A DNA stretch of 64,000 nt from assembly GCA_050260455.1 (NCBI GenBank), contig JBLNCF010000012.1, positions 58,236 to 122,235 of the forward strand. The letters run 5' to 3'. The stretch comes from Bacillota bacterium. Its GTDB lineage: Bacteria; Patescibacteriota; Minisyncoccia; Phycocordibacterales; Phycocordibacteraceae. The notes beneath the pieces are model-generated. The model was not told where the DNA came from. It searched no databases and worked only from the letters and a program-made list of their open reading frames with translations. Positions 9,935-55,726 of the stretch are shown in pieces (the first letter of the stretch is position 1; the number at the start of each line of letters is the position of its first letter). The translations under genes and the position numbers were made by a program.

Positions 9935-9935
9935 T

Positions 9936-9944
9936 GGTATTCTG
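9936..9944 (+). promoter_or_regulatory. extended -10 element TGGTATTCT ending 6 nt before the VIT start codon
   Basis: TGnTATTCT; spacing implies the transcript starts at or next to the ATG (leaderless). Confidence 0.3.
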
Positions 9945-9949
9945 AATCC

Positions 9950-10651
9950 ATGAGGACCCACCGCGAACTTCACACCGCTCCGATTGCGGGCAAGCTGAAT
10001 TGGCTGCGTGCGGCGGTGCTGGGTGCAAACGATGGCATCGTCTCACTTGCTGCACTTGTAGTTGGAGTTGCCGGAGCATCCGTCCCGTCAGGAGTGATAT
10101 TTGTGACGGGTATCGCGGGGCTTCTGGCAGGTGCCTTTTCCATGGCGGTGGGTGAGTACGTATCGGTGAGTAGCCAACGCGATGCCGAACGAGCGCTGCT
10201 CGATAAGGAACGCTACGAGCTTGAGCACTATGCCGGACCCGAACTCGATGAACTCACCTCCCTCTACGAAAAGAAAGGACTTAATCCTGGCACGGCGCGT
10301 ACTGTGGCCGAAGAACTCACTGCCCATGATGTCTTTGCAGCGCACGCGGAAGCTGAGCTTGGTATTAACCCTAAAGAACTCACGAATCCGTGGCATGCTG
10401 CCGGCGCGTCAGCGGCTGCGTTTACGGTAGGTGCCCTTATTCCGCTCCTCGCAATACTCATTCCGCCCGCGCCGCTTCGCATACCGGTCACATTCGCCGC
10501 AGTGCTCGTAGCTCTTACAATTACTGGGGTAGTAAGCGCGCGTGCCACCGGGGTAAAAACCATACCCGCAACACTTCGGGTACTTATCGGTGGTATCCTT
10601 GCGATGGCCATCACCTTCCTGATTGGGCGGCTGTTTGAAGGAGCGGCATAA
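9950..10651 (+). CDS. VIT1/CCC1-family iron/manganese transporter
   Basis: LRAAVLGANDGIVS and GEYVSVSSQRD signatures; five TMs; stop 3 nt before the sigma factor gene. Confidence 0.8.
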   Translation: MRTHRELHTAPIAGKLNWLRAAVLGANDGIVSLAALVVGVAGASVPSGVIFVTGIAGLLAGAFSMAVGEYVSVSSQRDAERALLDKERYELEHYAGPELDELTSLYEKKGLNPGTARTVAEELTAHDVFAAHAEAELGINPKELTNPWHAAGASAAAFTVGALIPLLAILIPPAPLRIPVTFAAVLVALTITGVVSARATGVKTIPATLRVLIGGILAMAITFLIGRLFEGAA

Positions 10652-15080: not shown

Positions 15081-15082
15081 GA

Positions 15083-15110
15083 GAGCCTGCGACCCAGGCT
15101 CTTTTGCGTT
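15083..15110 (+). terminator. Rho-independent terminator
   Basis: GAGCCTG-cgacc-CAGGCTC followed by TTTTGCGTT. Confidence 0.6.
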
Positions 15111-15146
15111 CGGAGTCCGGCAAGTGTTTTATGGTACCCTCGATAT

Positions 15147-15668
15147 ATGGAAGACTCTCGCGGCTTTACGCTTATCGAACTACTCATTGTCATCGCCATC
15201 ATAGGAATCATTTCATCCGTAGTGGTGGCATCACTCGTCCTCACACGGCCCCGTGCACGTGACGCGGAACGGCTTTCAGATCTCCGTCAAATACGCATTG
15301 CACTTTCGTTGTACTACTCGACCTATAAGAAATTTCCGTACTGTCTGTCTGGGTGCACCGGAGCGCTCGACACTACTTCATATATGCCGAATGTACCCAA
15401 GGATCCGAAAACTGGCAGGGATTATAACTATGCCGCGTTAGCTCCTGGTTGTCTGACCTATCATCTCGGAGCACCGCTTGAAGATAAGAGTAACCGTGCT
15501 CTTCTCACTGATTCGGATGCGCCCTCTCAAGCACGCTGTTCTGATCAGAGCAGCTCTGATTTCTCTGGTACGTCCTACTACACTGGGGGTGTGTGCACGG
15601 GATCGACCGGGACTCCGCAGCCTACGACGGCAGGGAATGGTGAGAATTGCTATGATATCGTTCCCTAA
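15147..15668 (+). CDS. type IV pilin / pseudopilin (prepilin N-terminal cleavage/methylation domain)
   Basis: GFTLIELLIVIAIIGI class III signal at the N-terminus. Confidence 0.75.
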   Translation: MEDSRGFTLIELLIVIAIIGIISSVVVASLVLTRPRARDAERLSDLRQIRIALSLYYSTYKKFPYCLSGCTGALDTTSYMPNVPKDPKTGRDYNYAALAPGCLTYHLGAPLEDKSNRALLTDSDAPSQARCSDQSSSDFSGTSYYTGGVCTGSTGTPQPTTAGNGENCYDIVP

Positions 15669-27338: not shown

Positions 27339-27385
27339 TCCCCATGTTAGTTAGGCATCCTCGCATCTACGCGTAGAATGGAAGT

Positions 27386-29065
27386 ATGACCCAGGCCCAA
27401 GCGCTCGACATTCTCAAGACCGGCGCGAACGTGTTCCTCACGGGGGAGCCGGGAAGCGGCAAGACGCACACGCTTTCCGCATACATCGCCTGGCTTAAGT
27501 CTCATGGCATCGAACCATCGGTGACTGCATCTACGGGCATCGCCGCAACGCATGTGGGCGGCATGACTATCCATTCGTGGAGCGGGATCGGTATTCTTGA
27601 GCACCTCGATGCAGAAGATCTCGATCGCATCGCCTCGAAGGAGCACGTTGCGCGCCGCATTCAAAAAGCAAAGGTACTTATCATTGATGAGATCTCCATG
27701 CTCTCTGCAGGGGCGCTCTCGATGGTGGACGCGGTTGCTCGCGAGGTGCGTCGAGATACTCGCGCCTTCGGCGGTCTACAAGTAATCTTCTGCGGCGATT
27801 TCTTCCAGCTTCCGCCCGTCACGCGCGGTGGCACGCCAGCAGAGTTTGCGTTCATGTCTCCATCGTGGCGTTCGGCTACACCGCTCGTGTGTTATCTCAC
27901 GGAGCAGCATCGCCAGGAGGACGACACCTATCTCTCCATTCTCTCCGCTATACGCGATGGCAGTTTCGATCATACGCATGCGTCGGCCATTCTCTCGCGC
28001 GAATCGGATGGGGACGAGCTTGAGAGCGACACGCCGCGCCTCTTCACGCACAACGCGGACGTGGATCGCATCAACGATGAATGTCTTGCGCGGCTTCCCG
28101 GTTCTTCTCGTGCGTTCCGTATGGAAACCACCGGTCCTGATGTGCTTATCGAAGGATTGAAGCGGGGTTGTCTGTCGCCCGAGACACTGGAACTGAAAGT
28201 GGGCGCCGTTGTGATGTGTACCAAGAATCATCCGGCAGGCATGTACGTGAACGGTACGCTCGGAACCGTCACCGGTTTCGCACGCGGTTCAGGCGAACCG
28301 ATCATCGAAACCCGCGATGGTCGGGAGCTGTCGATGGTATCAACCGAGTGGGCTCTTGAAGAGAATGGCAAGGTGCGTGCAAAGATTGCACAGGTGCCGC
28401 TTCGACTTGCATGGGCCATTACGATACATAAGAGTCAGGGCATGAGCATGGATGCCGCGGCCATCGATCTGTCACGCTCGTTTGAGTTTGGACAGGGGTA
28501 CGTTGCACTCTCGCGCGTGAGATCACTGTCAGGTCTTGTGCTTCTCGGGTGGAGTGAACAAGCGACTTTGGTGCATCCAGAAGTTGCGCGCATGGATGAA
28601 CGTCTGCGCGAGGAATCCTATGCCGCAGAAGAGGCGTTCCAGACGTTGAGTGAAGATGGCGACCTCGCAATCATGCACCGCAATTTCATCATGGCGTCCG
28701 GGGGTACGCTCACGGAAGCTCCAGAAGGAGCGAAGTCGACCAAGCGTACGACGTATGACGAGACACTCGCATTCATTGAAGACGGCATGCCGCTTATCGA
28801 TATCGCCAAAGAACGCAAACTCACGATCGGTACCATTGCCGATCATGCGGAAAAACTCATTGCAGGTGGACGCATTGATGCGGCGACCTTACTTGCACTC
28901 ATCCCGGCCCGACTGGTCGCCGGACTCCCTGATATCCACGAGACCTTCGAAGAAGTCGGTACGGAGAAACTTGCTCCGGCGCATGCAAAATTGCACGGCC
29001 GATATACCTACGATGAGTTGAAACTGGCCCGCATCCTGTACGCTCGGGAGGCTGGGGTAAAATAA
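27386..29065 (+). CDS. PIF1/RecD-like ATP-dependent DNA helicase
   Basis: Walker A GEPGSGKTH, DEIS Walker B, PIF1-like motifs; C-terminal helicase HTH-like region. Confidence 0.8.
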   Translation: MTQAQALDILKTGANVFLTGEPGSGKTHTLSAYIAWLKSHGIEPSVTASTGIAATHVGGMTIHSWSGIGILEHLDAEDLDRIASKEHVARRIQKAKVLIIDEISMLSAGALSMVDAVAREVRRDTRAFGGLQVIFCGDFFQLPPVTRGGTPAEFAFMSPSWRSATPLVCYLTEQHRQEDDTYLSILSAIRDGSFDHTHASAILSRESDGDELESDTPRLFTHNADVDRINDECLARLPGSSRAFRMETTGPDVLIEGLKRGCLSPETLELKVGAVVMCTKNHPAGMYVNGTLGTVTGFARGSGEPIIETRDGRELSMVSTEWALEENGKVRAKIAQVPLRLAWAITIHKSQGMSMDAAAIDLSRSFEFGQGYVALSRVRSLSGLVLLGWSEQATLVHPEVARMDERLREESYAAEEAFQTLSEDGDLAIMHRNFIMASGGTLTEAPEGAKSTKRTTYDETLAFIEDGMPLIDIAKERKLTIGTIADHAEKLIAGGRIDAATLLALIPARLVAGLPDIHETFEEVGTEKLAPAHAKLHGRYTYDELKLARILYAREAGVK

Positions 29066-30840: not shown

Positions 30841-30883
30841 TTTCATTGACGCCTTGCATATATAAAGGTATTTTTTACTCAAC

Positions 30884-30902
30884 GGCCGCGCGGCCTCTTT
30901 TT
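30884..30902 (+). promoter_or_regulatory. GC palindrome GGCCGCGCGGCC plus TCTTTTT immediately upstream of the typA start codon
   Basis: Perfect 12-bp palindrome followed by a U-tract ending 4 nt before the ATG; attenuator, operator or weak terminator. Confidence 0.35.
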
Positions 30903-30906
30903 AATT

Positions 30907-32694
30907 ATGGAAATACGGAATATCGCCATCATCGCCCACGTGGACCACGGCAAAACCACCCTTACTGACGCCCTCATGCGCCAGACCGGTGCGGTGCAGG
31001 AAGGCGTCTCCATGGACTCCAATACGCTTGAGCAGGAGCGCGGTATCACTATCTATTCGAAGAACACCTCCATCGAGTACAAGGGTACGAAGATCAACAT
31101 CGTGGACACACCGGGTCACGCCGACTTCGGCTCTGAAGTGGAGCGTGTGCTTCGTTCCATCGACTCGGTGCTTCTCGTCGTTGATGCGCAGGAAGGTCCG
31201 ATGCCGCAGACCCGCTTCGTGCTCAAGAAGTCGCTAGAGCTTGGATTGAAACCTATTGTGGTCCTGAACAAGATTGATAAGCCGGCAGCGAATCCTGCAC
31301 AGGCAGAGGAGCAGGTGCTTGAACTCTTCTGGGAACTCGGTGCAAGCGATGAGCAGTCTGACTTCCGTACGGTGTACGCTATCGGTCGCGAGGGTGTTGC
31401 CATGAAGAACCTTGAAGACGAGCGTACGGACCTTACGCCGCTTCTCGATACCATTCTTGAACTCGTTCCTCCTGCGTCCACGCCGGAAGCAGTGGAGAAA
31501 CCTGCGAAACTCCAGGCATTTAATCTCGCGTACGACAACTTCCTTGGCCGCCTCGCCATCTGCCGCGTATACGAAGGTGTCATCAAGGGGACTGACAACG
31601 TGACGGTGAAAAAACCGACTGGCGAAGCACGCACGGGCAAGCTCACCAAGGTCTTTACCTTCAAAGGGCTTGAACGTGTTGACGTACCTGAAGCCCAGGC
31701 GGGCGACATTGTTATCATTGCTGGTCTCCCCGACATCTTCATTGGCGAAACGATTACGACTGATCCGAATGCCGAGGCGCTTCCGGCCATCGCTATTGAT
31801 GAGCCGACCATTACGCTCTCGTTTCTGGTCAACAACTCTCCGTTTGCTGGTAAGGAAGGGAAGTACGTCACTTCACGCCAGCTCCGTGAGTATCTTGAAC
31901 GCGAGCTTGAAGTGAACGTGGGCCTTAAGGTGGACTTTGTTGCACCGGATAATTTCCAGGTCTCCGGCCGTGGTGAGCTTCACATTGCGATTCTTCTTGA
32001 GAATATGCGCCGTGCAGGATACGAAATGCAGGTCTCGCAGCCGCAGGTCATCATTCACGACAACAATGGCGTGAAGGAGGAACCGTTTGAAGAAGTCATT
32101 ATTGATACGCCGTCCGAGTTCCAGGGTGCCATCATCGAGAAGCTTGGTCAGCGCGGTTTTGTGCTTCAGAACATGCTGCAGCACGACACGCAGGTGCGCC
32201 TTACGCTTGAAGGTCCGACGCGCGGACTCCTCGGCTACCGCAACCAGTTTGTAATCGACACTAAGGGTGAGGGCATCCTCTCTTCACGTGTTATCGGCTT
32301 CAAGCCATTTGCCGGTGAAATTAAGAAGCGCCAGGTAGGCTCGATGATCTCGATGGCGGCTGGCAAAGCGCTCGGCTACGCCCTCTGGGGTCTTCAGGAA
32401 CGCGGCACACTCTACATGGGTCCAGGTGTGGATGTCTACGAGGGTCAGGTTATCGGCAATACCTCGAAGGGTGAAGAGATGATCGTGAATCCCACCAAGG
32501 GTAAGAACCTTACCAACGTGCGTTCGTCTGGCAACGATGAGGCTATCAATCTCTTTCCGCCGTATACGCTTTCTATCGAGCGTGGTCTTGAAGTGATGGC
32601 GGAGGACGAGTATCTCGAAATCACTCCTTCTTCGGTTCGTTTGCGCAAGCAGTATCTGACCGAGACCGATCGCGCAAAGGCTCGTCGCGCGTAG
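30907..32694 (+). CDS. typA: translational GTPase TypA/BipA
   Basis: [26 protein letters not shown]; 595 aa. Confidence 0.95.
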
Positions 32695-34004: not shown

Positions 34005-34044
34005 GGGCGCTTCCTCTCTGGGGAAGCGCCTTCATCTTTTCTTT
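34005..34044 (+). terminator. Rho-independent terminator
   Basis: GGGCGCTTCC-tctctg-GGAAGCGCC then TTCATCTTTTCTTT. Confidence 0.6.
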
Positions 34045-34279: not shown

Positions 34280-34366
34280 GGAAGGATAATATCGTGCCGG
34301 CTTCTGCACGGCGTGCAGCGCAAGTCTCAGCGAGCGGGACGTGCGCTGCACGCTAGGGCAGAAGCC

Positions 34367-34395
34367 TTGAATAAGCGCCATGCGCGTGGTATACT
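34367..34395 (+). promoter_or_regulatory. sigma70-type promoter TTGAAT-N17-TGGTATACT (extended -10) for the DEAD-box helicase
   Basis: Good -35, 17-nt spacer, TGn extended -10; predicts a 5' UTR of about 155 nt. Confidence 0.5.
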
Positions 34396-34558
34396 CCCGG
34401 TACAACAGTGCTCCAAGTTTACTGTCTTGAGGACTCCATTTTGTCGGTAGTCGGCTCGAGACCAGGAAGGACTCTTCCACCTGAAACTCTCGAGGACCGT
34501 TGTGCTTATCCGATTTCGGCCTGTATTTACATACGGTTCCGACAAGACAATTACTTAC

Positions 34559-35947
34559 ATGCAGCAATTCAAGAACAGGGGCGGTGGCGCAGTGCGTTCA
34601 CGTCCCGCTAAGTCCGGCGCACGGCGTGCCGCTCCTTCGAGTGCGTACGAGGCGGGTATGAAGTTCGCCCAGGAGCTCGGTATGACGCCGACCCTCAATT
34701 ATGTTCCTCGTCGCGAAGCGCCTCGCGGCCGTCCCAATCGCGGTGGTTCCGGGGGTGGGCGCTCACGTACGGGGAGTTCTCGCGGTCGCAACGATTCTTC
34801 GCGCGGAGGCGGTAAACGCAATGCGCAGGAGATGGCCGTTGACCTCTCGAAGCTCATCAACAAAGCAGCACCGATGGAAGCGGAAGCTCCCTATGTGCCG
34901 CAGCACTCATTCAACGACTTTAAGATTGACGAGCGACTGAAGGCTAACATCGCCGCGAAGGGATATCTCACCCCGACTCCCATCCAAGATCAGTCCATCC
35001 CGCATGTGCTTAAGGGTGAGGACATTGTGGGACTCGCAAACACCGGTACCGGCAAGACCGCATCCTTCCTCATTCCGCTCATCGACAAGGTGATCAAGTT
35101 CCGCACCCTCGGCAAGAATGAGCGCGTGCTCATCATGGTGCCTACGCGCGAACTCGCACTCCAGATCGAGCAGGAGTTCTTCGGCTTTGCCAAGGGGCTC
35201 GGACTCGCAAGCGTCACCTGTGTTGGTGGTGCAAATATTGTGCCGCAGATTCGTGTACTCCGTCGCAATCCTGCCTTCGTCATCGGTACGCCGGGACGTC
35301 TGAAGGATCTTATGGAACGCAAGGATCTCGACCTCTCCGATTTCGCTACCGTCGTGCTCGACGAGGCGGACCGCATGCTCGACATGGGATTCATTGGCGA
35401 TATGCGCTACATCCTTTCCTGCATGCAGGAGAAGCGCCACACGCTTTTCTTCTCGGCCACTATGGATAAAGAGATTGAGAAACTCATCGGTGATTTCCTC
35501 ACCAATCCGGCTCGTGTGTCCGTGAAGACGCGTGATACCGCAGCGACTATCGACCAGGATGTTGTGTACGTTACACGCGACAACAAGTTCGATGTGCTTG
35601 TAGACCTTCTTACGGGTCCGGACATGGACAAGGTTCTCGTCTTCGGCCGCACGAAGCATGGCGTCGAGCGTCTCACTCGTGACCTCAATCGTCGCGGAGT
35701 GAAGGCTGATTCTATCCATGGCGATAAAACGCATGGTCGCCGCCAGAAGGCACTTGGTCTCTTCAAGCAGAATCATATCCAAGTGCTAGTTGCGACTGAC
35801 GTGGCTGCTCGCGGTCTCGATATCTCGGGTGTCTCGCATGTCATCAACTATGATCTGCCCGCGACGTATGAGGACTATACGCACCGCATCGGCCGCACCG
35901 GCCGTGCCGGGAAGACGGGCCAGGCCCTCACGTTCGTAAGCCAATAA
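34559..35947 (+). CDS. DEAD-box ATP-dependent RNA helicase with Arg/Gly-rich N-terminal extension
   Basis: Q-motif, AxTGTGKT, DEAD, SAT, HRIGRTGRAG motifs; start taken at MQQFKNRGGG (track ORF starts 34502 with GTG); N-terminal about 110 aa RG/RGG-rich. Confidence 0.85.
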   Translation: MQQFKNRGGGAVRSRPAKSGARRAAPSSAYEAGMKFAQELGMTPTLNYVPRREAPRGRPNRGGSGGGRSRTGSSRGRNDSSRGGGKRNAQEMAVDLSKLINKAAPMEAEAPYVPQHSFNDFKIDERLKANIAAKGYLTPTPIQDQSIPHVLKGEDIVGLANTGTGKTASFLIPLIDKVIKFRTLGKNERVLIMVPTRELALQIEQEFFGFAKGLGLASVTCVGGANIVPQIRVLRRNPAFVIGTPGRLKDLMERKDLDLSDFATVVLDEADRMLDMGFIGDMRYILSCMQEKRHTLFFSATMDKEIEKLIGDFLTNPARVSVKTRDTAATIDQDVVYVTRDNKFDVLVDLLTGPDMDKVLVFGRTKHGVERLTRDLNRRGVKADSIHGDKTHGRRQKALGLFKQNHIQVLVATDVAARGLDISGVSHVINYDLPATYEDYTHRIGRTGRAGKTGQALTFVSQ

Positions 35948-36736: not shown

Positions 36737-36763
36737 AATCTTCAGTGCTTTCGGAATGAAGCC

Positions 36764-36797
36764 ATCACGCCCCGTTCACCGGGGCGTGATGTATTAT
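36764..36797 (+). terminator. candidate terminator ATCACGCCCCG-ttcac-CGGGGCGTGAT then GTATTAT
   Basis: 11-bp stem; weak U-tract. Confidence 0.45.
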
Positions 36798-36805
36798 CAG
36801 CGGAT

Positions 36806-37510
36806 ATGACAGACGACACCTACGTTACGCTCGCCGTGGAAGACGGATCTGAAATGCGCGCCTATGTGGCGCAGCCCTCGGTTACGCCGCGTGCCGGCAT
36901 CATCGTTATTCAGGAAGCGTTCGGGGTGAATCCCTATATTCGTAGTGTGGCGGACCGATTCGCGAGCGAGGGATATCTCGCTGTCGCACCCGAGCTCTTT
37001 CATCGCACCGCTCCTGGTTTTGAATCTGATTACGTAAATCGCGACGGTGTGGCAGAGAACATGGCGGGACTCACACTCGGAGGCCAGGAACATGATCTCC
37101 GAGCAGCCTACGAATGGCTCCGTACAGAAGGAGGTGTAGGGGAACGCATCGCGACCGTTGGATTCTGCATGGGCGGAAAGGCATCGTATCTTGCAAACGC
37201 CATCCTTCCGTTGAAGGCTGCGGTGTCCTACTACGGCGGGGGTATTGCACCTGACCTTCTCGATCGTGCCGTGAACCTGAATGCTCCCATGCTCTTCTTC
37301 TGGGGAGGGAAGGACGCACACATTCCGCGCGAGCTCTGGAGTCAAATTCCAGAAGCAATGGAGCAGGCAGGAAAATCCCACATCACGGTGGAGATGGGGG
37401 ACGCCGGTCATGGCTTCTTCTGCGATCAGCGCGATAGCTACGACCCAGCAGCCAGTGCGCTTGCGTGGCCCCTCACACTCCAATTCCTCGACCAAAAGTT
37501 ATCCTCGTAG
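36806..37510 (+). CDS. dienelactone hydrolase family protein
   Basis: alpha/beta hydrolase with GFCMGG nucleophile elbow; DLH-like N-term IIVIQEAFGVN. Confidence 0.75.
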   Translation: MTDDTYVTLAVEDGSEMRAYVAQPSVTPRAGIIVIQEAFGVNPYIRSVADRFASEGYLAVAPELFHRTAPGFESDYVNRDGVAENMAGLTLGGQEHDLRAAYEWLRTEGGVGERIATVGFCMGGKASYLANAILPLKAAVSYYGGGIAPDLLDRAVNLNAPMLFFWGGKDAHIPRELWSQIPEAMEQAGKSHITVEMGDAGHGFFCDQRDSYDPAASALAWPLTLQFLDQKLSS

Positions 37511-38045: not shown

Positions 38046-38064
38046 CAGGGTGTAGAATCGAGGC

Positions 38065-39018
38065 ATGTCAGCGCGTACGCTCTCGGTCCCATTCCGGGCC
38101 CTTATGTGGGTGTACGCCATCGTACCCATTCTCTCCTTGGTCGCTGGTGCAGATCTCTTGATTGCACACGGCGCCCTCCGCTCCTTCCTCCCACGCGACC
38201 CCGAACATTTCTTCCTCTATCTACTTCTGTTCAATGTTCCGCATCATGTCGGGAGTCTGTTGTCGTTCGCGGATGCCGAGTACCTGAAGCACTATCGGCG
38301 TAGGTTACTCACCACACTCCCCCTTGTGTGGACGGCGACCGCGCTGTGTTTCTTCTTCGCTCCACTCCTCGCGCTCGTAATATTTATCGTTTACACGGAA
38401 TATCACACGCTTAATCAACAGATAGGCATCGGGGGTGCATTTATACGGACACGTCTTGCATATCTATCACTCTGGCGTTGGTCGACCGTTGCCATCATGG
38501 CACTGTTCTACGCAGCGACCACGTATCCAACACTCATACCAGCAGCGGCAGGACATGCCGCTGCTGTGTTTGGCATTGCGGTCAGTATCATGCAAGCGGG
38601 GGTGACACTCCTCTTGTACCGACAGATAGAGACCTCACACGGGAAGTCGTTTTTCCTTGCAATCAGCATGAGTCTTGCAGGCGCTGCGTGGATTATGGCG
38701 CTCGGCTACCCACTCCTCTCCGCCCTTATGACACGGTTCATACACGATGTGACAGCGTTTATGGTCTATGCGGTGCATGACCGCAACCGTAATCATGAGC
38801 GACGACACAATGTGATTTATCGTGCGCTCTCGTTCCTGCCGATCCCCGTACTTGTCCTGGTACCTCTTGTTGCGGTACTTATCGCAGCGCCTCTTACCTT
38901 CGGTCTCGCTGCTGGGAGTCTTGTGCTCATGCTCTTATTTATGACCCACTACTACGTCGAGGGCATTATTTGGCGGCGCGGCACCATCCATCGCGCCCAC
39001 CTCACATTTGCCCCGTAG
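38065..39018 (+). CDS. hypothetical polytopic membrane protein
   Basis: 317 aa, about 8 TMs; no motif recognised. Confidence 0.45.
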   Translation: MSARTLSVPFRALMWVYAIVPILSLVAGADLLIAHGALRSFLPRDPEHFFLYLLLFNVPHHVGSLLSFADAEYLKHYRRRLLTTLPLVWTATALCFFFAPLLALVIFIVYTEYHTLNQQIGIGGAFIRTRLAYLSLWRWSTVAIMALFYAATTYPTLIPAAAGHAAAVFGIAVSIMQAGVTLLLYRQIETSHGKSFFLAISMSLAGAAWIMALGYPLLSALMTRFIHDVTAFMVYAVHDRNRNHERRHNVIYRALSFLPIPVLVLVPLVAVLIAAPLTFGLAAGSLVLMLLFMTHYYVEGIIWRRGTIHRAHLTFAP

Positions 39019-39906: not shown

Positions 39907-39945
39907 ATCCGCAGTATATCGCAGTGCCGATGCTAGAATGCACCC

Positions 39946-40761
39946 ATGGCTCAAAAACGCCTCCATTACTACACCCATCGTGGCCGACGAGCACATCCCA
40001 CGACCATCGCGCATCGAGTGGGGAACGGACTCATCCTCCCGCTTCTCCTCGTGGTACTTGCTGTCGCTGCAGGAACCGGAGCCTTTTTCCTACCGTCTCC
40101 CTACACCATTCCTGCGGGTATGTTGCTCGGTGCACTCGGGGCTTCTCTCCTCCGACTCTTCGGTGCTTTCTTTCTTGCGCTTCTCATAGGCATCCCCCTT
40201 GGACTTCTTGCTGAATCGAATCGGCGAATTGAATCGGCCCTCTTGCCGATTTTCGATGTACTTGAGTCCATGCCAGTGCTCGCGTTCTTTCCCGTGATCA
40301 TTCTTTTCTTCCTACATTCTGGATGGGTGGAGGGTGCTGCGCTCTTCATTATCTTTTTTTCGATGGTCTGGAATATCGCGTTCAGTACAGTCGGTGGCCT
40401 CAAAGTCGTTCCAGCTGATGTGAATTCAATAGGGAAGGTCTTTGGTCTCTCACCTTTCGCTCGGCTCACAAAGATTACCTTGCCTGCCTTGTTCCCTCCG
40501 TTGGTTACCGGCTCTATCCTTTCCTTAGCAGACGGATGGAACGTACTCATTGTCGCTGAAGCATTACACGCGTATGCGCCTGCTACATCCAGCGCTCCGG
40601 ATCTCTTTGGTATCGGGAGCATATTGGTTGCTGCGTCATCGACCGGCGATACCTCAACCCTGCTTGTGGCTATGGGTATTCTCGTGCTGGTAATCGCACT
40701 CATTAATCTGTTCGTGTGGCAGCCCTTACTCGCTCTATCCGAGCGCTACAAATTCGAATAA
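39946..40761 (+). CDS. ABC transporter permease (NitT/TauT, SsuC-like)
   Basis: BPD_transp_1 EAA-like region SPFARLTKITLPALFPPLVTG; 6 TMs; start uncertain, may be an internal Met. Confidence 0.75.
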   Translation: MAQKRLHYYTHRGRRAHPTTIAHRVGNGLILPLLLVVLAVAAGTGAFFLPSPYTIPAGMLLGALGASLLRLFGAFFLALLIGIPLGLLAESNRRIESALLPIFDVLESMPVLAFFPVIILFFLHSGWVEGAALFIIFFSMVWNIAFSTVGGLKVVPADVNSIGKVFGLSPFARLTKITLPALFPPLVTGSILSLADGWNVLIVAEALHAYAPATSSAPDLFGIGSILVAASSTGDTSTLLVAMGILVLVIALINLFVWQPLLALSERYKFE

Positions 40762-45958: not shown

Positions 45959-46009
45959 GCGGAAAGTATATACCCAGGCTCGGTGAAGGCTCCGTGTTAG
46001 AATCGGGCC

Positions 46010-46462
46010 ATGAAGCGCTCGACGCTCATTTCTCTTATCATTGCGCTCTCATTCCTCGGCGTGGCAGATGCCTGGTATCTCGCGGAGACCGCGCTTACCC
46101 ATACGGCTCTGACCTGCAGTATAGCAGGGCTCGATGGCTGCAATGTCGTTGCGCAAAGCCCCTATTCGCACGTTTTCGGCATTCCGCTTGGGGTATACGG
46201 TGTCGTCTTCTACGCCCTCACTATCATTATCGCAGCCCTCTCGGCGCGGCTGGTTCGTACCTGGCTCGATCGCATTCTGGCGCTGATTGTTTTTGTCGGA
46301 GCGCTCGCCTCCCTCTATTTCTTGTACGTCCAGTTCGTACTTATTCAGGCGCTGTGCGTGTACTGCCTTGCGTCTGCAGTCATCTCGCTTGCGCTCACGG
46401 TCGTAGTTATTCGTCTGGTACGAGGGCAGAAAACGAGCGACCCTGCGGCTACTGTCTCTTAA
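46010..46462 (+). CDS. vitamin K epoxide reductase (VKOR) family protein
   Basis: TM-embedded CxxC (CVYC), loop Cys pair (TCSIAGLDGC), 4-5 TMs. Confidence 0.7.
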   Translation: MKRSTLISLIIALSFLGVADAWYLAETALTHTALTCSIAGLDGCNVVAQSPYSHVFGIPLGVYGVVFYALTIIIAALSARLVRTWLDRILALIVFVGALASLYFLYVQFVLIQALCVYCLASAVISLALTVVVIRLVRGQKTSDPAATVS

Positions 46463-46468
46463 ACTCTC

Positions 46469-47641
46469 GTGTTATTATCAGGCCATATGAAGCGGTACCT
46501 AGCTATCGCAACTCTGCTTCTCCTTGCGCCGTCGTTCGCGTACGCATCCACATTCACCTCAAGCCGCACCGTCGTTCTTTCCGACGAGACGACCAACGCA
46601 TACCTGACTGGTACAGATATTACGGTCGTAGCGCCGCTTGCGGGCGACCTGCTTGCGGCCGGAGGCACGGTGACGGCGAATAGTCCGATAGCCGGAGACG
46701 CGATGCTCGCGGGCGGTACTATCGATATCGAGAAACCGGTGGCAGGCGATGTGCGTGCGGGTGGCGGTACCGTCACCGTGAACGCTCCTGTGGGCGGTGA
46801 CCTGGTTGCAGGAGGAGGAACGGTTACCGTTTCAGGAACCGCCAAGGAGATGCGTATTGCGGGCGGCACGGTACGCATAACTAATGGTGCCACCGGTCCA
46901 GTCATTATCTACGGCGCCGATATTTCTCTTGCGGGTGATTTTGCAGGCGATGTCACCATCGAGGCTTCCGACCGAATCACCATTGCGGAGGGCACTCATA
47001 TCCATGGTGCGCTGCGGTATAACGCACCGCAGGAGATCACACTTCCGGTGGGTGCTGTTGCTGATGGGGGCGTCTCCTATATCGGTTCGTCATCGTTCCT
47101 GCCGACCTCGCAGGAAGCACAGACGTTCGCGGTAGCCGGCGCGACCATCTTCTTTGTGGTACATCTCCTTGCCGTACTCATCCTTGCCGGTCTCCTTGCC
47201 GGTCTTTTCCCGGTATTCACCGAGCGGGTAGCCGAGCGCACACTTGCTGATCATTCTCCCGGTCGGTTTGTCCTTCTTGCTTTGCTTGGATTCGGTATAC
47301 TCGTAGCCGCACCGGTGCTCATCCTCTTCCTCCTCTTCTCGTTCGTCGGTATTGGCGTAGCACTCGTACTGGCTGCGCTCTATGCACTCTTTATCATGCT
47401 TGCCTATATCTATGCCGGTATCCTTGCTGGTGCCGCCCTCGCTCGGGGACTTATGAAGCGGCACATCATTACGTGGAAGGAGGCGGTGCTCGGCATGCTC
47501 GTCCTCTACCTTATCGGAGTCATTCCAGTCATTGGCATGCTCGTTAAGTTTGTGCTCATGCTTGCTGCGGGCGGAGCTATTGTTTCCATAGCGTACGTAT
47601 TCGCGTTCCGCCGGACCTCTGCAGAGCCGCTCTTCGAGTGA
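46469..47641 (+). CDS. signal-peptide protein with Gly-rich beta-helix-like repeats (bactofilin/DUF4097-like) and C-terminal polytopic membrane domain
   Basis: Reiterated about 19-aa units (AGD..AGGTVTVN.P); then about 5 TMs. Confidence 0.5.
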   Translation: MLLSGHMKRYLAIATLLLLAPSFAYASTFTSSRTVVLSDETTNAYLTGTDITVVAPLAGDLLAAGGTVTANSPIAGDAMLAGGTIDIEKPVAGDVRAGGGTVTVNAPVGGDLVAGGGTVTVSGTAKEMRIAGGTVRITNGATGPVIIYGADISLAGDFAGDVTIEASDRITIAEGTHIHGALRYNAPQEITLPVGAVADGGVSYIGSSSFLPTSQEAQTFAVAGATIFFVVHLLAVLILAGLLAGLFPVFTERVAERTLADHSPGRFVLLALLGFGILVAAPVLILFLLFSFVGIGVALVLAALYALFIMLAYIYAGILAGAALARGLMKRHIITWKEAVLGMLVLYLIGVIPVIGMLVKFVLMLAAGGAIVSIAYVFAFRRTSAEPLFE

Positions 47642-53720: not shown

Positions 53721-55637
53721 CTAGACGCCGATCAGGACCGGGATGACCATCGGCGCCTTGTTGGTGCGCGCGAAGAGGTAACCGGCCATAGTGTCAGACA
53801 ACGTGTTCTTCACGTAATCGAGATCCACCGGGTTCATACCCTTGGTGGAATCCTCGACCGTCTTCTTGATGAGAAGGCGGGCCTGGTTCAAGAGATCCTG
53901 GCTCTCGCGCAGATACACGAAGCCGCGGGAAATGATGTCCGGGGACTTGCGGAGCTTGCCGGTCTTCAGGTTCACCGTCGCGATGATGACGAACATACCG
54001 TCCTTGGCGAGCATCTGGCGGTCGCGAATGACCACCTCCTGCATGTCACCGATAGAGAAGCCGTCCACAAGAAGCGGCGCGCTCGGCACCTTCTCCTTAT
54101 GGATGTTGAGCTTCTCGCCACCTTCGATGTCGATCACCATGCCGTTCTCGGCGAGGATGATGGTGTCGCGTGGGCGTCCAGCCTGTTCCACCGCCTTCGC
54201 ATGGCACGAGGTCATGGAGTAGTAGCCGTAGGCGGGCATGAAGAACTTAGCGTTCACCTTCTGGTTGATCCAGACGAGCTCACCGGCGCGGGCATGGCCG
54301 CCCGAGTGCACATCGGAAGAACGGTAGTGGATGAGGGTCACCTTGTTGTGGTAGAGGTTGTCCTTCAGTTTCTGGACCGAAAGTTCGTTACCCGGAATGA
54401 CGGAAGACGAGAGGACCACGGTATCGCGCTCGCTAAGCGTGATGTTTTTGTGCTGTTTCGTTGCGATGCGCATGAGCGCTGCGAATTCTTCGCCCTGGGC
54501 ACCGGTAGCGAGCACCACGATCTTGTCGGGAGCGTAGTCGCCAATTTCCTGGGCGCTAATAATAGTGCCTTTCTTGAGTTCAACGAGACCGAGCTTCTGC
54601 GCAATCTCGAGGTTCGTCTTGATCGAACGACCTTCCATGACAATCTTCTTGCCGTACTTCTCGGCGATCTCGATGATCTTCACCATACGCTCGAACTGCG
54701 AGGCGAAGGTGCCGATGATCACACGACCCTTCACGGTCTTGATGATTTCCTCGAGGGTGTCGTGCACCTTCTTGTCGGGAATGGAGAAGCCTTCGATTTC
54801 CGCGTTGGTAGAGTCACCGATGAAGAGGAGATTCTTCTCTGCTCCGATGGCGCTCCATTTCTTCACTTCGTCGTCTGCCGGAACACCGTTCTCATGCTCA
54901 AGCTTCAAGTCGCCGGTCACGATGACATTGCCATACGGAGTCTCTACCTTGATACCCATGGAGTCGGGGATGGAGTGGGTCACGGGGAAGAAGTGCACCT
55001 TCGTGCTGCCGATGGTCACTGTCTGGTCATCCTCAACGACGATCAGGTTCGGCTTCGGCATGTCCGGATATTCCTCCTGACGCTTCTGAATCATAGTCGC
55101 CGAGAGCTGCATGGTGTAGATCGGGGGATTGCCGAAGCGGTTCATCAAGAAGGGAATGCCGCCGATGTGATCCAAGTGACCGTGGGTGATGAACACCGCG
55201 CGGATACGGTCCTGGTTCTTCTCGAGATACTTCGTATTCGGAAGGACGTAGTCGACGCCGGGGGAATCATCCTCGGAGACGAACTGGAAGCCGACATCGA
55301 AGATAAAGATGTCGTTGTTCGTTTCGATGGTGAACATGTTGCGTCCCACTTCTTCGACGCCTCCCAAGGGAACGACGCGGACTACTTCCTTGCTCGGAGC
55401 GTCCGGAAGGTAGTCGGCACCTTTCTTTGCGGGTGCACCGCCAGAAGGTCCCATGGGGCGACGAAGCTGTCGGCGAATCGAACGCGAGGCTCCGCCTGCG
55501 CGTCCTTTTCCACCACGAGGAGAACGACCGCCGCGGAATTCACGACCGCCGCGTTCACCGCGTGCTGCTGGTTTCTCGCCTGCCTGCCCGGCGTTCTTTG
55601 GAGATGGTGCCGGAGCGGGTGCTGGTGCTGTACTCAT
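53721..55637 (-). CDS. rnj: ribonuclease J (beta-CASP metallo-beta-lactamase) with Arg/Gly-rich N-terminal extension
   Basis: HGHLDHIGG, beta-CASP and C-terminal domains; about 85 N-terminal residues RG/P/A-rich, start uncertain. Confidence 0.9.
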   Translation of the reverse strand: MSTAPAPAPAPSPKNAGQAGEKPAARGERGGREFRGGRSPRGGKGRAGGASRSIRRQLRRPMGPSGGAPAKKGADYLPDAPSKEVVRVVPLGGVEEVGRNMFTIETNNDIFIFDVGFQFVSEDDSPGVDYVLPNTKYLEKNQDRIRAVFITHGHLDHIGGIPFLMNRFGNPPIYTMQLSATMIQKRQEEYPDMPKPNLIVVEDDQTVTIGSTKVHFFPVTHSIPDSMGIKVETPYGNVIVTGDLKLEHENGVPADDEVKKWSAIGAEKNLLFIGDSTNAEIEGFSIPDKKVHDTLEEIIKTVKGRVIIGTFASQFERMVKIIEIAEKYGKKIVMEGRSIKTNLEIAQKLGLVELKKGTIISAQEIGDYAPDKIVVLATGAQGEEFAALMRIATKQHKNITLSERDTVVLSSSVIPGNELSVQKLKDNLYHNKVTLIHYRSSDVHSGGHARAGELVWINQKVNAKFFMPAYGYYSMTSCHAKAVEQAGRPRDTIILAENGMVIDIEGGEKLNIHKEKVPSAPLLVDGFSIGDMQEVVIRDRQMLAKDGMFVIIATVNLKTGKLRKSPDIISRGFVYLRESQDLLNQARLLIKKTVEDSTKGMNPVDLDYVKNTLSDTMAGYLFARTNKAPMVIPVLIGV

Positions 55638-55726
55638 AATGATTACTGATTAGAGATTAATTAATCGTTTCTAGTAGAGTCACTAGTCTTCGGACAGAAC
55701 TGATTCCGTACAAAAACCAATAACCC

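What the first reader, a model, noticed from the sequence alone, without database searches (positions are those of the whole stretch)
34559..34890. Arg/Gly-rich N-terminal extensions on both the DEAD-box helicase and RNase J (55380-55637)
Both RNA-decay enzymes carry 85-110 N-terminal residues rich in RGG, RGR, GGG and PAP (the helicase has GGGAVRSRPAKSG...RGRPNRGGSGGGRSRTGSSRGRNDSSRGGGKR; RNase J has ERGGREFRGGRSPRGGKGRAGGASR). RG-rich tails usually sit at the C-terminus of bacterial DEAD-box proteins and mediate RNA binding or condensates. Matching N-terminal tails on the two likely degradosome partners would be unusual. The extensions could instead be translated leader in a high-GC genome, with true starts at internal Mets (MKFAQELG / MGPSGG).
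Basis: partly seen in the sequence, partly recalled or inferred. Interest (0 to 1): 0.5.

Follow-up and report, generated by a model that had tools for sequence, protein, structure and literature searches.

The report
Basic disordered N-terminal tails, both real
In this small-genome (CPR/Paceibacteria) bacterium, both the RNA helicase and the main RNA-degrading enzyme RNase J carry a translated, conserved, positively charged floppy tail at their front end, a lineage-wide and apparently undescribed variant of a known way of helping such enzymes hold RNA.

Summary
The DEAD-box helicase (34559-35947, +) has 115 residues ahead of where family models start and no C-terminal tail. RNase J (55637-53721, -) has 85 extra residues. 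They hold the two most Arg/Gly-rich stretches in the six-frame translation of the window.

Both tails are translated from the first ATG. The frame stays open in about 70 of 74 related helicase genes, and in all RNase J relatives with at least 68% core identity. Conserved motifs lie upstream of the proposed internal Mets, which are not themselves conserved. RNase J begins with a nearly invariant M-x2-APAPAPAP, encoded by all synonymous codons across 44 relatives. pN is below pS in both tails. The shorter database entries (370 and 576 aa) that were checked at DNA level are gene-calling artefacts.

The genome is 55% GC, not high-GC, and the tails stay basic and Arg/Gly-rich in relatives at 33-40% GC. 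AlphaFold2 predicts both as disordered, apart from one short conserved helix in the helicase tail.

The two tails match in composition only (BLASTP E=24). No physical partnership was tested. The most likely role is accessory RNA binding or tethering. The closest precedents are the H. pylori RNase J N-terminal extension and the basic tails of other DEAD-box proteins.

Also noticed: a conserved structured 5' leader on the helicase mRNA, and apparently widespread leaderless genes.

The parts
34559..35947 (+). DEAD-box RNA helicase gene, 462 aa. Core is aa 116-461, with no C-terminal extension.
   Evidence: ORF. Pfam DEAD + Helicase_C and NCBIfam CshA/RhlE models align from aa 116-118 to 461. Closest solved structure is CshA 5IVL, query aa 118-461.
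34559..34903 (+). Helicase N-terminal extension, aa 1-115. It is basic (net +14), rich in R/G/S, and predicted disordered.
   Evidence: AF2 pLDDT is below 50 for aa 1-25 and 44-108. An N-terminal extension of 54-197 aa (median 88) is present in 70 of 74 species-level relatives. pN is 0.27-0.40 against pS 0.69-0.81. All five other frames contain stops, and Arg/Gly codon choice matches the genome.
34640..34675 (+). Conserved short helix motif SAYEAGMKFAQE (aa 28-39) inside the helicase tail.
   Evidence: Conserved S-x-AYEAGM(K/R)FA block in alignment A1. It is the only predicted helix in the tail, pLDDT 54-71. The motif is found in 11/70 relatives, the closest clade only.
34697..34717 (+). Conserved NYVPRRE motif (aa 47-53).
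   Evidence: Alignment A1. Relatives with shorter tails begin at the aligned MATTYI(V/R)R(K/T).
34718..34819 (+). Arg/Gly/Ser-rich low-complexity core of the helicase tail (aa 54-87).
   Evidence: Top RG-rich window in the six-frame scan. Its sequence and length vary among relatives.
34820..34867 (+). Conserved pre-core segment NAQEMAVDLSKLINKA (aa 88-103).
   Evidence: E91, M92, L99, N101, K102 and A103 are invariant or nearly so in A1. A D-[LIV]-S-K-[LF]-[IV]-N-K-like motif occurs in 43/70 relatives at a fixed 22-25 aa before the core.
53721..55637 (-). RNase J gene, 638 aa. Core is aa 86-638.
   Evidence: ORF. TIGR00649 scores 486.5 bits against a cutoff of 400, aligned from aa 86. Pfam finds Lactamase_B, beta-CASP and RNase_J_C. 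B. subtilis RNase J1 3ZQ4 aligns to aa 87-636.
55383..55637 (-). RNase J N-terminal extension, aa 1-85. It is basic (net +12), rich in R/G/P/A, and predicted disordered.
   Evidence: AF2 pLDDT is 31-37 with no secondary structure for aa 1-71. The extension is present in all relatives with at least 68% core identity. pN is 0.25-0.39 against pS 0.54-0.77. An in-frame stop lies 5 codons upstream of the ATG.
55605..55628 (-). Nearly invariant APAPAPAP motif (aa 4-11) at the extreme N-terminus of RNase J.
   Evidence: A6-P11 are at least 90% conserved in A2. The motif is present in 45/49 distinct tails. Several synonymous codons are used at every one of the 8 positions (all four at seven of them) across 44 distinct relatives, which indicates selection on the peptide. 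It is the only (AP)n run in the six-frame window.
55482..55562 (-). RG-rich segment of the RNase J tail (aa 26-52), including the tri-RGG RGGREFRGGRSPRGG (aa 29-43).
   Evidence: Sequence is variable among relatives.
55455..55484 (-). Conserved arginine-rich motif RSIRRQLRRP (aa 52-61).
   Evidence: Consensus R-x-IRR-x-LRRP in A2 and in the 46-sequence tail alignment. A regex match is found in 26/49 tails.
34367..34395 (+). Predicted helicase promoter, TTGAAT-17-TG-n-TATACT.
   Evidence: Consensus scan. The TTG and TG..A...T positions are invariant in 14 aligned relatives.
34402..34558 (+). Predicted 157-nt 5' UTR of the helicase mRNA. It has no SD and contains no AUG before the assigned start. 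Nucleotides 34402-34504 form a conserved Y-shaped structured element.
   Evidence: No Rfam match.
55638..55726 (-). RNase J upstream intergenic leader. It holds the hairpin CTAGTgactctACTAG (55671-55686), followed by a G-poor, SD-less stretch up to the ATG.
   Evidence: Sequence. The hairpin is conserved in L004. AT/C-rich, SD-less sequence precedes the ATG in 44 relatives. No promoter or terminator consensus was found.

Best explanation
Both extensions are translated, lineage-specific parts of the proteins. Each is a strongly basic, Arg/Gly-rich, intrinsically disordered N-terminal tail. Each combines a fast-evolving low-complexity stretch with short conserved motifs.
- Helicase motifs: an S-AYEAGMKFA helix, NYVPRRE, and D-L-S-K-L-I-N-K just before the core.
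- RNase J motifs: N-terminal APAPAPAP, R-x-IRR-x-LRRP, and DY-x-P.

Shown here: translation starts at the first ATG (34559 and 55637). The tails are conserved across Paceibacteria-type CPR bacteria, evolve under relaxed purifying selection, and are predicted disordered.

Inferred: the tails act as accessory electrostatic RNA-binding or tethering arms that raise local RNA affinity for the catalytic cores. This is the job done by the C-terminal basic tails of RhlE, CshA and DeaD. In this lineage the helicase has no C-terminal tail, and one relative (L055) carries an RGG-like tail at the C-terminus instead. The embedded conserved motifs probably dock onto partners that are still unknown. The two tails arose independently and resemble each other in composition only.
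For: Core boundaries.

Conservation in relatives: alignments A1 and A2. 70 of 74 species-level helicase loci have an N-extension of 54-197 aa and essentially no C-tail. RNase J relatives with at least 68% identity all carry M-x-APAPAPAP, then an RG-rich stretch, then IRRxLRRP.

Short database entries are mis-called starts: the upstream frame is open and encodes the same tail in L001 and L004.

Selection on the protein: synonymous-only variation in APAPAPAP. Third-codon-position differences are about twice those at positions 1 and 2, and pN is below pS in the tails. Arg/Gly codon usage matches the genome, and stops occur in the other frames.

Start site: internal Mets are not conserved. The helicase start is the first AUG of the predicted transcript, and 11 of 17 related UTRs contain no AUG at all.

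Not a GC artefact: net positive charge of 0.07-0.23 per residue, R/(R+K) of 0.67 and Gly 0.19 persist in relatives at 33-40% GC.

Disorder: AF2.

Specificity: only these two proteins have such tracts in the window and in 790 kb of related loci.

Position-independence: L055 has a C-terminal RGG-like tail.

Precedents: the H. pylori RNase J 132-aa disordered N-extension is needed for full activity but not for RhpA binding (PMC3592473, PMC10700544). The C-terminal disordered regions of RhlE govern RNA binding and unwinding (PMC11260450). CPR bacteria retain RNase J, RNase III and PNPase as their ribonucleases (PMC12641178).
Against: No experimental or direct computational test of RNA binding was possible.

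Strict RGG-box motifs are not conserved: tri-RGG occurs in 8/70 helicase tails and 3/49 RNase J tails. The conserved property is basic disorder, not RGG as such.

The near-invariance of APAPAPAP and of the helix motif points to specific partner recognition, which generic RNA binding does not explain.

The AF2 models rest on shallow alignments (40-44 sequences, 70-89% identical).

pS is saturated, so no reliable dN/dS value can be given. The codon alignments were guided by the protein alignment, which biases them towards amino-acid identity.
Confidence: 0.7

Rival explanations
1. The extensions are not part of the mature proteins. They are an open 'translated leader', and the true starts are the internal Mets (MKFAQELG or MAVDLSKL in the helicase, MGPSGG in RNase J).
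For: Some database entries start at those Mets: 370-375-aa helicases and 576-585-aa RNase J. There is no Shine-Dalgarno sequence before either upstream ATG.
Against: The two short calls checked at DNA level have an open upstream frame encoding the same conserved tail. The internal Mets are not conserved, and M34 is Ala in L001. Conserved motifs lie upstream of them, and APAPAPAP shows only synonymous variation. The frame is kept open in about 70 helicase and more than 50 RNase J relatives. A missing SD is normal in this genome, where about half the genes look leaderless.
Confidence: 0.03
2. The tails are mainly protein-protein or ribosome-docking and scaffold elements. In this view they assemble an RNase J-helicase degradosome or condensate, or tether both enzymes to ribosomes. 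RNA binding is secondary.
For: The invariant short motifs (APAPAPAP, the AYEAGMKFA helix, DLSKLINK) look like linear docking motifs. [quoted passage not shown] CPR bacteria retain rnj, rnc and pnp as their ribonucleases, and no RNase E- or Y-type scaffold is listed among them. The helicase lies next to the ribosome-assembly GTPase BipA here and in relatives.
Against: There is no evidence of interaction. The tails share no motif with each other. In H. pylori the RNase J N-extension is dispensable for helicase binding. The helix motif is restricted to the closest clade, 11/70.
Confidence: 0.2
3. The tails are neutral low-complexity expansions, produced by replication slippage or compositional drift, that are tolerated but have no function.
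For: The RG-rich middle parts vary freely in length and sequence. pN in the tails is 3-4 times that of the cores. Searches with the tails alone find no family.
Against: The tails are retained in nearly all relatives across 33-63% GC, always with net positive charge. Conserved motifs sit at fixed positions. pN is below pS. No similar tracts occur in neighbouring genes.
Confidence: 0.05

Closest known systems
N-terminal extension of Helicobacter pylori RNase J (132 aa)
   Same: It is a lineage-specific, predicted disordered N-terminal extension on the sole RNase J of a bacterium lacking RNase E. It is important for full nuclease activity, and the enzyme works with the single DEAD-box helicase RhpA (PMC3592473, PMC10700544).
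   Different: phmmer aligns only the cores (query aa 76-598 to 8CGL residues 135-654), so the tails show no detectable similarity. The Paceibacteria tail is shorter (75-130 aa), Arg/Gly/Pro-rich, and has its own motifs (APAPAPAP, IRRxLRRP). The H. pylori papers call their extension a distinctive feature of the Helicobacter lineage.
C-terminal basic disordered tails of bacterial DEAD-box helicases (RhlE1/RhlE2, CshA, DeaD)
   Same: These are basic, low-complexity disordered appendages on a RecA-like DEAD-box core. They tune RNA binding, unwinding, phase separation and RNase interaction (PMC11260450).
   Different: Here the tail is N-terminal and the protein ends right at the core, aa 461 of 462. 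Scores for the CshA and RhlE equivalog models are below their cut-offs.
Eukaryotic DEAD-box helicases with N-terminal RGG or disordered domains (LAF-1, DDX4/Vasa, Ded1p/DDX3X)
   Same: The architecture is the same: an N-terminal Arg/Gly-rich disordered region followed by the DEAD-box core. Vasa and DDX3X are among the best PDB matches to the core, and DDX3X aligns from aa 104. The N-terminal disordered region of Ded1p binds nucleic acid and promotes phase separation (PMC8315639, abstract). The roles of LAF-1 and DDX4 are from my own knowledge.
   Different: There is no homology in the tails, the organism is bacterial, and no arginine methylation machinery is expected. The helicase tail here does not meet the strict di- or tri-RGG spacing.
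Arg-rich RNA-binding segments in the disordered C-terminal scaffold of RNase E
   Same: This is a disordered, arginine-rich region appended to the main decay nuclease that carries RNA-binding and partner-docking microdomains (discussed in PMC3592473; details from my own knowledge).
   Different: It belongs to a different nuclease family, sits at the opposite terminus and is much longer. No docking sites have been mapped in the tails found here.

Membership tests
DEAD-box RNA helicase (SF2, DDX) | DEAD and Helicase_C domains with the Q, I (GxGKT), II (DEAD), III (SAT) and VI (HRIGRTGR) motifs | tested here: met
   PF00270 at 1.7e-45 and PF00271 at 1.8e-31. TGTGKT, DEAD, SAT and HRIGRTGR are visible in the translation and invariant in A1.
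CshA / RhlE equivalogs (NCBIfam NF053631, NF007882) | Whole-protein score above the curated cut-off, including the family's C-terminal region | tested here: not met
   CshA scores 413 bits against a cut-off of 646, and RhlE scores 354 against 743. The models are matched only over positions 1-342 of 434 and 2-349 of 456, with no C-terminal extension.
RNase J (TIGR00649, beta-CASP metallo-beta-lactamase) | Score above the cut-off, with MBL, beta-CASP and RNase J C-terminal domains | tested here: met
   TIGR00649 scores 486.5 against a cut-off of 400. PF00753, PF22505 and PF17770 are all present.
RNase J1 (RnjA, NF047419) | Score above the curated cut-off of 820 | tested here: not met
   550.6 bits.
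RGG/RG-motif proteins (tri-RGG, di-RGG, tri-RG and di-RG with spacers of 0-4 residues; definition recalled from Thandapani et al. 2013) | At least a di-RGG or tri-RG motif | tested here: inconclusive
   The RNase J tail has a tri-RGG at aa 29-43, while the helicase tail has only a di-RG. Among relatives, tri-RGG occurs in 8/70 and 3/49 tails, and di-RG in 35/70 and 38/49.
Intrinsically disordered region | Low predicted order and a low-hydrophobicity, high-charge composition | tested here: met
   AF2 pLDDT is below 50 over helicase aa 1-25 and 44-108 and over RNase J aa 1-71. Hydrophobic residues number 11/87 and 8/85. This is prediction only.
Helicobacter-type RNase J N-terminal extension | Sequence homology of the extension | tested here: not met
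   The phmmer alignment to 8CGL starts at chain residue 135 and query aa 76. The tails are not aligned.
RNase J-helicase degradosome | Physical interaction between the two enzymes | not testable with these tools
   The only support is that both genes occur on the same contigs in about a dozen relatives, judged by matching contig lengths. There are no interaction data.

The most novel reading that the evidence does not exclude
Paceibacteria (CPR) bacteria, which lack an RNase E- or Y-type scaffold, may organise RNA decay through N-terminal basic disordered tails on RNase J and their DEAD-box helicase. In this reading, lineage-specific docking motifs (APAPAPAP, the AYEAGMKFA helix) assemble a degradosome-like complex or condensate. 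Helicase expression would be fed back through the 5'-terminal structured leader: P1 sequesters the mRNA 5' end from RNase J until the helicase unwinds it.
Probability: 0.12. Interest if true: 0.7.

Novelty: new variant of a known kind. Interest (0 to 1): 0.42.

Why it matters
CPR/Patescibacteria make up a large, mostly uncultured share of bacterial diversity, and their RNA metabolism is essentially unstudied. This analysis has four consequences:

1. Their central decay nuclease and their DEAD-box helicase both carry conserved basic disordered N-terminal tails with specific short motifs. These are concrete, testable handles for how a minimal cell recruits RNA and partners without an RNase E-type scaffold.

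2. Some public annotations of these genes are truncated. The 370-aa helicase and 576-aa RNase J entries that were checked start at internal Mets and miss the tails.

3. N-terminal disordered regions on RNase J extend beyond Helicobacter.

4. N-terminal Arg/Gly-rich DEAD-box architectures, best known from eukaryotic condensate helicases, also occur in bacteria.

Tried and rejected
- Searching 5.8 billion proteins with the helicase tail alone (aa 1-107) gave nothing at E<=1e-3.
- An exhaustive HMMER search with the RNase J tail alone gave two RNase J N-terminal fragments and one unrelated repeat protein. So there is no evidence that the tails are portable modules on other proteins. Low complexity limits the sensitivity of both searches.
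- Pfam on the tails alone at E<=10 gave nothing.
- The exact-sequence look-up of the window's own two proteins, meant to provide an annotated neighbourhood, found them not on record.
- RNAalifold on plain MAFFT alignments of the helicase leader predicted no structure. Per-sequence folding and a hand-segmented alignment were needed instead.
- The 'high-GC artefact' idea was rejected.
- The idea that a lineage had lost both tails together (P0016 and P0214, apparently on the same contig) was rejected. Both short forms are gene-calling artefacts.
- The upstream GTG at 34502 was rejected as the helicase start. Relatives begin at the aligned MQQ/MNQ, and the sequence upstream of it is not conserved.
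Full report
WHAT IS THERE

The window is 52-57% GC. Its closest relatives are Paceibacteria/Parcubacteria-type CPR genomes, although NCBI labels the source contig 'Bacillota bacterium'.

The helicase ORF starts at ATG 34559 and ends at 35947 (462 aa). Pfam DEAD and Helicase_C domains, and every NCBIfam DEAD-box model (CshA, RhlE, DeaD, SrmB and others), start at aa 116-118 and stop at aa 460-461. The best solved homologue, CshA 5IVL, covers aa 118-461. The protein therefore has 115 extra N-terminal residues and no C-terminal tail.

RNase J runs from 55637 to 53721 on the minus strand (638 aa). TIGR00649 and RnjA position 1-2 align with aa 86, and B. subtilis J1 3ZQ4 aligns with aa 87-636. An in-frame stop lies five codons upstream of the ATG.

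Helicase aa 1-87 has R16, G17 and net charge +16. RNase J aa 1-85 has R12, G16, P12, A14 and net charge +12. Both cores have zero RGG.

IS IT MORE THAN CHANCE?

A six-frame scan of every ORF of at least 60 aa in the window ranks these two segments first, each with 19 of 30 residues R or G and 7 RG/GR dipeptides. The remaining hits lie in short ORFs that look like non-coding frames. In about 790 kb of related loci (2,057 ORFs of at least 100 aa in all frames), no credible RG-rich segment occurs outside these two genes. BipA, GroEL, a Pif1-type helicase and the other neighbouring proteins have no such tails.

ARE THE TAILS TRANSLATED?

Six lines of evidence say yes, from the first ATG.

1. Protein alignments of 43 helicase and 39 RNase J relatives show conserved blocks inside the tails and upstream of the proposed internal Mets.
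   - Helicase: MxQ..N, S-x-AYEAGM(K/R)FA, NYVPRRE, a variable RG-rich stretch, then GKR-N-x-QEM-x-VDLSKLINKA.
   - RNase J: M-S-x-APAPAPAP (at least 90% conserved), a variable RG-rich stretch, R-x-IRR-x-LRRP, then KK..DY-x-P.

2. The short database entries (about 370 aa and 576 aa) are gene-calling artefacts.
   - In L001 the frame upstream of the called start is open. It encodes MQTFNKGG...SSAFEAGAAFARQF...NYVPRRD...RGG. The Met of 'AGMKFA' is an Ala there.
   - In L004 the upstream frame encodes MSTAPAPAPAPAPHKGE...RNIRRQLRRPMGPSS.
   - P0044 (435 aa) and P0116 (374 aa) appear to be two calls of one gene.

3. Among species-representative genomes, 70 of 74 helicase loci have an open N-extension of 54-197 aa (median 88) and essentially no C-tail. 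All RNase J relatives with at least 68% core identity have the AP-RG-IRR tail.

4. In APAPAPAP, several synonymous codons are used at every one of the eight positions, and all four at seven of them, across 44 distinct relatives, while the peptide is invariant. Selection therefore acts on the protein, not on an RNA element.

5. Codon-level comparison supports coding. Differences per codon position in the tails are about 0.3, 0.3 and 0.65. pN is 0.25-0.40 against pS 0.54-0.81, while core pN is 0.08-0.17. Caveats: pS is saturated, and the alignments were guided by the protein. Arg and Gly codon choice in the tails matches the genome, and the five other frames of the helicase tail contain stops.

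6. The internal Mets are not conserved: helicase M34-equivalent in 9/70 tails, M92-equivalent in 13-21/70, and RNase J M62-equivalent in 5/49. The helicase ATG is the first AUG of the predicted transcript, and 11 of 17 related 5' UTRs contain no AUG at all.

The absence of an SD is not an argument against these starts, because about half the genes in the window look leaderless.

NOT A GC ARTEFACT

Across 70 helicase tails from genomes of 33-63% GC, net charge stays at +0.07 to +0.23 per residue. In the 33-40% GC bin, R/(R+K) is still 0.67 and Gly is 0.19. More distant RNase J relatives (50-60% identity) keep long basic tails that are richer in K/S/T/N and lack the AP motif. Relatives at 44-46% identity have no tail.

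STRUCTURE

AlphaFold2 with the family alignments gives pLDDT below 50 for helicase aa 1-25 and 44-108. The only secondary structure element in the tail is a helix at aa 28-39 (SAYEAGMKFAQE, pLDDT 54-71), which is the conserved motif. RNase J aa 1-71 has pLDDT 31-37 and no secondary structure. The alignments are shallow, so this supports disorder but does not prove it.

DO THE TAILS MATCH?

Only in composition; BLASTP between them gives E=24. Strict RGG-box criteria are met by the RNase J tail (tri-RGG at aa 29-43) but not by the helicase tail, and they are not conserved among relatives. The conserved property is therefore a basic Gly/Ser/Pro-rich disordered region plus lineage-specific short motifs.

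The helix motif is confined to the closest clade (11/70). The D-L-S-K-L-I-N-K motif, 22-25 aa before the core, is widespread (43/70). APAPAPAP is present in 45/49 tails.

Two relatives show the typical bacterial arrangement.
- L083, labelled Verrucomicrobiota, has a 4-aa N-terminus and an 82-aa C-tail.
- L055 has a 25-aa N-extension and a 42-aa C-terminal RGG-like tail.

This suggests the tail's role does not depend on which end carries it.

MECHANISM

Shown: the tails are translated, conserved, basic and predicted disordered. Inferred: they act as electrostatic RNA-binding or tethering arms that compensate for the missing C-terminal tail of the helicase and give RNase J an RNA-capture arm.

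This inference rests on known families.
- The C-terminal disordered regions of RhlE determine RNA binding, unwinding and RNase E interaction (PMC11260450).
- The disordered 132-aa N-extension of H. pylori RNase J is needed for full activity but not for RhpA binding, and may drive foci (PMC3592473, PMC10700544).
- CPR bacteria retain RNase J, RNase III and PNPase as their ribonucleases (PMC12641178), so RNase J is probably their central decay enzyme.

The invariant motifs suggest additional partner docking, which remains unidentified. A helicase-RNase J complex or condensate is possible but untested.

COMPARISON AND NOVELTY

Basic disordered tails on DEAD-box helicases and on decay nucleases are a known kind. 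Three things are new here:
- the N-terminal position on a bacterial DEAD-box protein;
- a second lineage, besides Helicobacter, with a disordered N-extension on RNase J that is not homologous to the Helicobacter one;
- the specific motifs.

Full-text searches found no paper linking Patescibacteria with RNase J or degradosomes. The tails match no Pfam family. They recover no other protein family in exhaustive searches.

SIDE FINDINGS

1. The helicase is its own transcription unit.
   - A terminator of the upstream dapD-like gene lies at 34005-34031, and a promoter TTGAAT-17-TGgTATACT lies at 34367-34395. Its -35 TTG and extended -10 are invariant in 14 relatives.
   - The predicted transcript starts near 34402 with ACAAC. 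Its first 78-105 nt fold into the same Y-shaped structure in the 15 relatives folded over the complete element: a long-range P1 that pairs the extreme 5' end, plus hairpins P2 and P3.
   - MFE z-scores range from -0.2 to -3.4.
   - P2 and P3 differ in sequence but keep their pairing, with compensatory changes in 7 of 8 alifold pairs on a segment-wise alignment.
   - A covariance model finds the element once in the window (90.8 bits) and only upstream of the closest helicase genes, those with at least 66% identity.
   - The modelled pairs are 93.6% paired, against 20-48% for slid controls.
   - Rfam has no match.
   - A plant 'DEAD' RNA element that senses helicase activity is a functional precedent (bioRxiv 10.64898/2026.01.23.701338, abstract).

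2. 30 of 61 candidate genes have a TAnnnT box ending 5-10 nt before the first ATG, against 1-8 in shifted controls. Eleven of them have the extended TGnTAnnnT form, against 0-1 in controls. This suggests widespread leaderless mRNAs.

VERDICT

The internal-start alternative is refuted. The 'matching partner tails' idea is only compositional and remains untested. This is a solid, moderately interesting, lineage-wide variant of a known theme.

Noticed in passing
window 34367-34504 (+): promoter 34367-34395, RNA element 34402-34504: A conserved promoter (TTG-17-TGnTAnnnT) is followed by a Y-shaped structured RNA of about 100 nt at the very 5' end of the helicase mRNA. P1 pairs the first nucleotides, and P2 and P3 are hairpins with compensatory changes. 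The element is found upstream of the 16 closest helicase orthologues and has no Rfam match. It may be an autoregulatory or 5'-end-protecting leader; that function is inferred.
   Followed up: partly
window-wide, e.g. first ATGs of the stop-to-stop ORFs 9935-10651, 15081-15668, 27377-29065, 36737-37510 (ATG at 36806), 38056-39018, 39937-40761, 46001-46462 and 46463-47641: 30 of 61 candidate genes have a -10-like TAnnnT ending 5-10 nt upstream of the first ATG and no SD, against 1-8 in shifted controls. Eleven have the extended TGnTAnnnT form, against 0-1 in controls. About half the genes therefore look leaderless.
   Followed up: partly
window 34313-34351 (+): A perfect 10-bp hairpin, GTGCAGCGCA...TGCGCTGCAC, has a conserved loop (TCTCAGCGAGCGGGA) and sits about 15 nt upstream of the helicase -35 box. 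It is conserved in L006-L008, with a compensatory A-T to G-C change in L008 (the same site as L001). Its function is unknown; it could be an operator or a small RNA.
   Followed up: no
window 55638-55726 (-), hairpin at 55671-55686: The RNase J leader holds a small hairpin, CTAGTgactctACTAG, which is conserved in L004. It is followed by a G-poor, AT/C-rich, SD-less stretch before the ATG in 44 relatives. No promoter consensus was found, so the gene may be co-transcribed with the upstream SBP_bac_5 gene.
   Followed up: partly
public entries P0013, P0016, P0022, P0113, P0116 (helicase, about 370 aa) and P0133, P0197, P0214, P0236 (RNase J, about 576 aa); checked at DNA level in L001 and L004: These database proteins start at internal Mets and miss the conserved tails. 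The two checked at DNA level (P0016 in L001, P0214 in L004) are truncated gene calls. The source contig is labelled 'Bacillota bacterium' at NCBI, and many relatives are labelled 'uncultured Candidatus Saccharibacteria', although the gene content and relatives are Paceibacteria-like.
   Followed up: yes
L055 (CAZSKK010000001.1), helicase C-terminus: One relative has only a 25-aa N-extension but carries a 42-aa RGG-like C-terminal tail (SSGGFGGGYNRSRSSGSSSFRRSSGGFGGGRRSSFRR). The tail appears to have moved from one terminus to the other.
   Followed up: partly
window 30850-32694 (+) with 34559-35947; L001-L003: The ribosome-assembly GTPase gene bipA/typA lies just upstream of the helicase, and a DsbA-like thioredoxin gene lies downstream. 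The same arrangement occurs in relatives, which hints at a ribosome-biogenesis or cold-adaptation context.
   Followed up: no
window 54099-55649 (+): A 516-aa ORF lies antisense to RNase J, and many other long antisense ORFs are present. These are frame artefacts of the high GC3 of the coding strand (RNase J GC3 is 0.75-0.80), not genes.
   Followed up: partly
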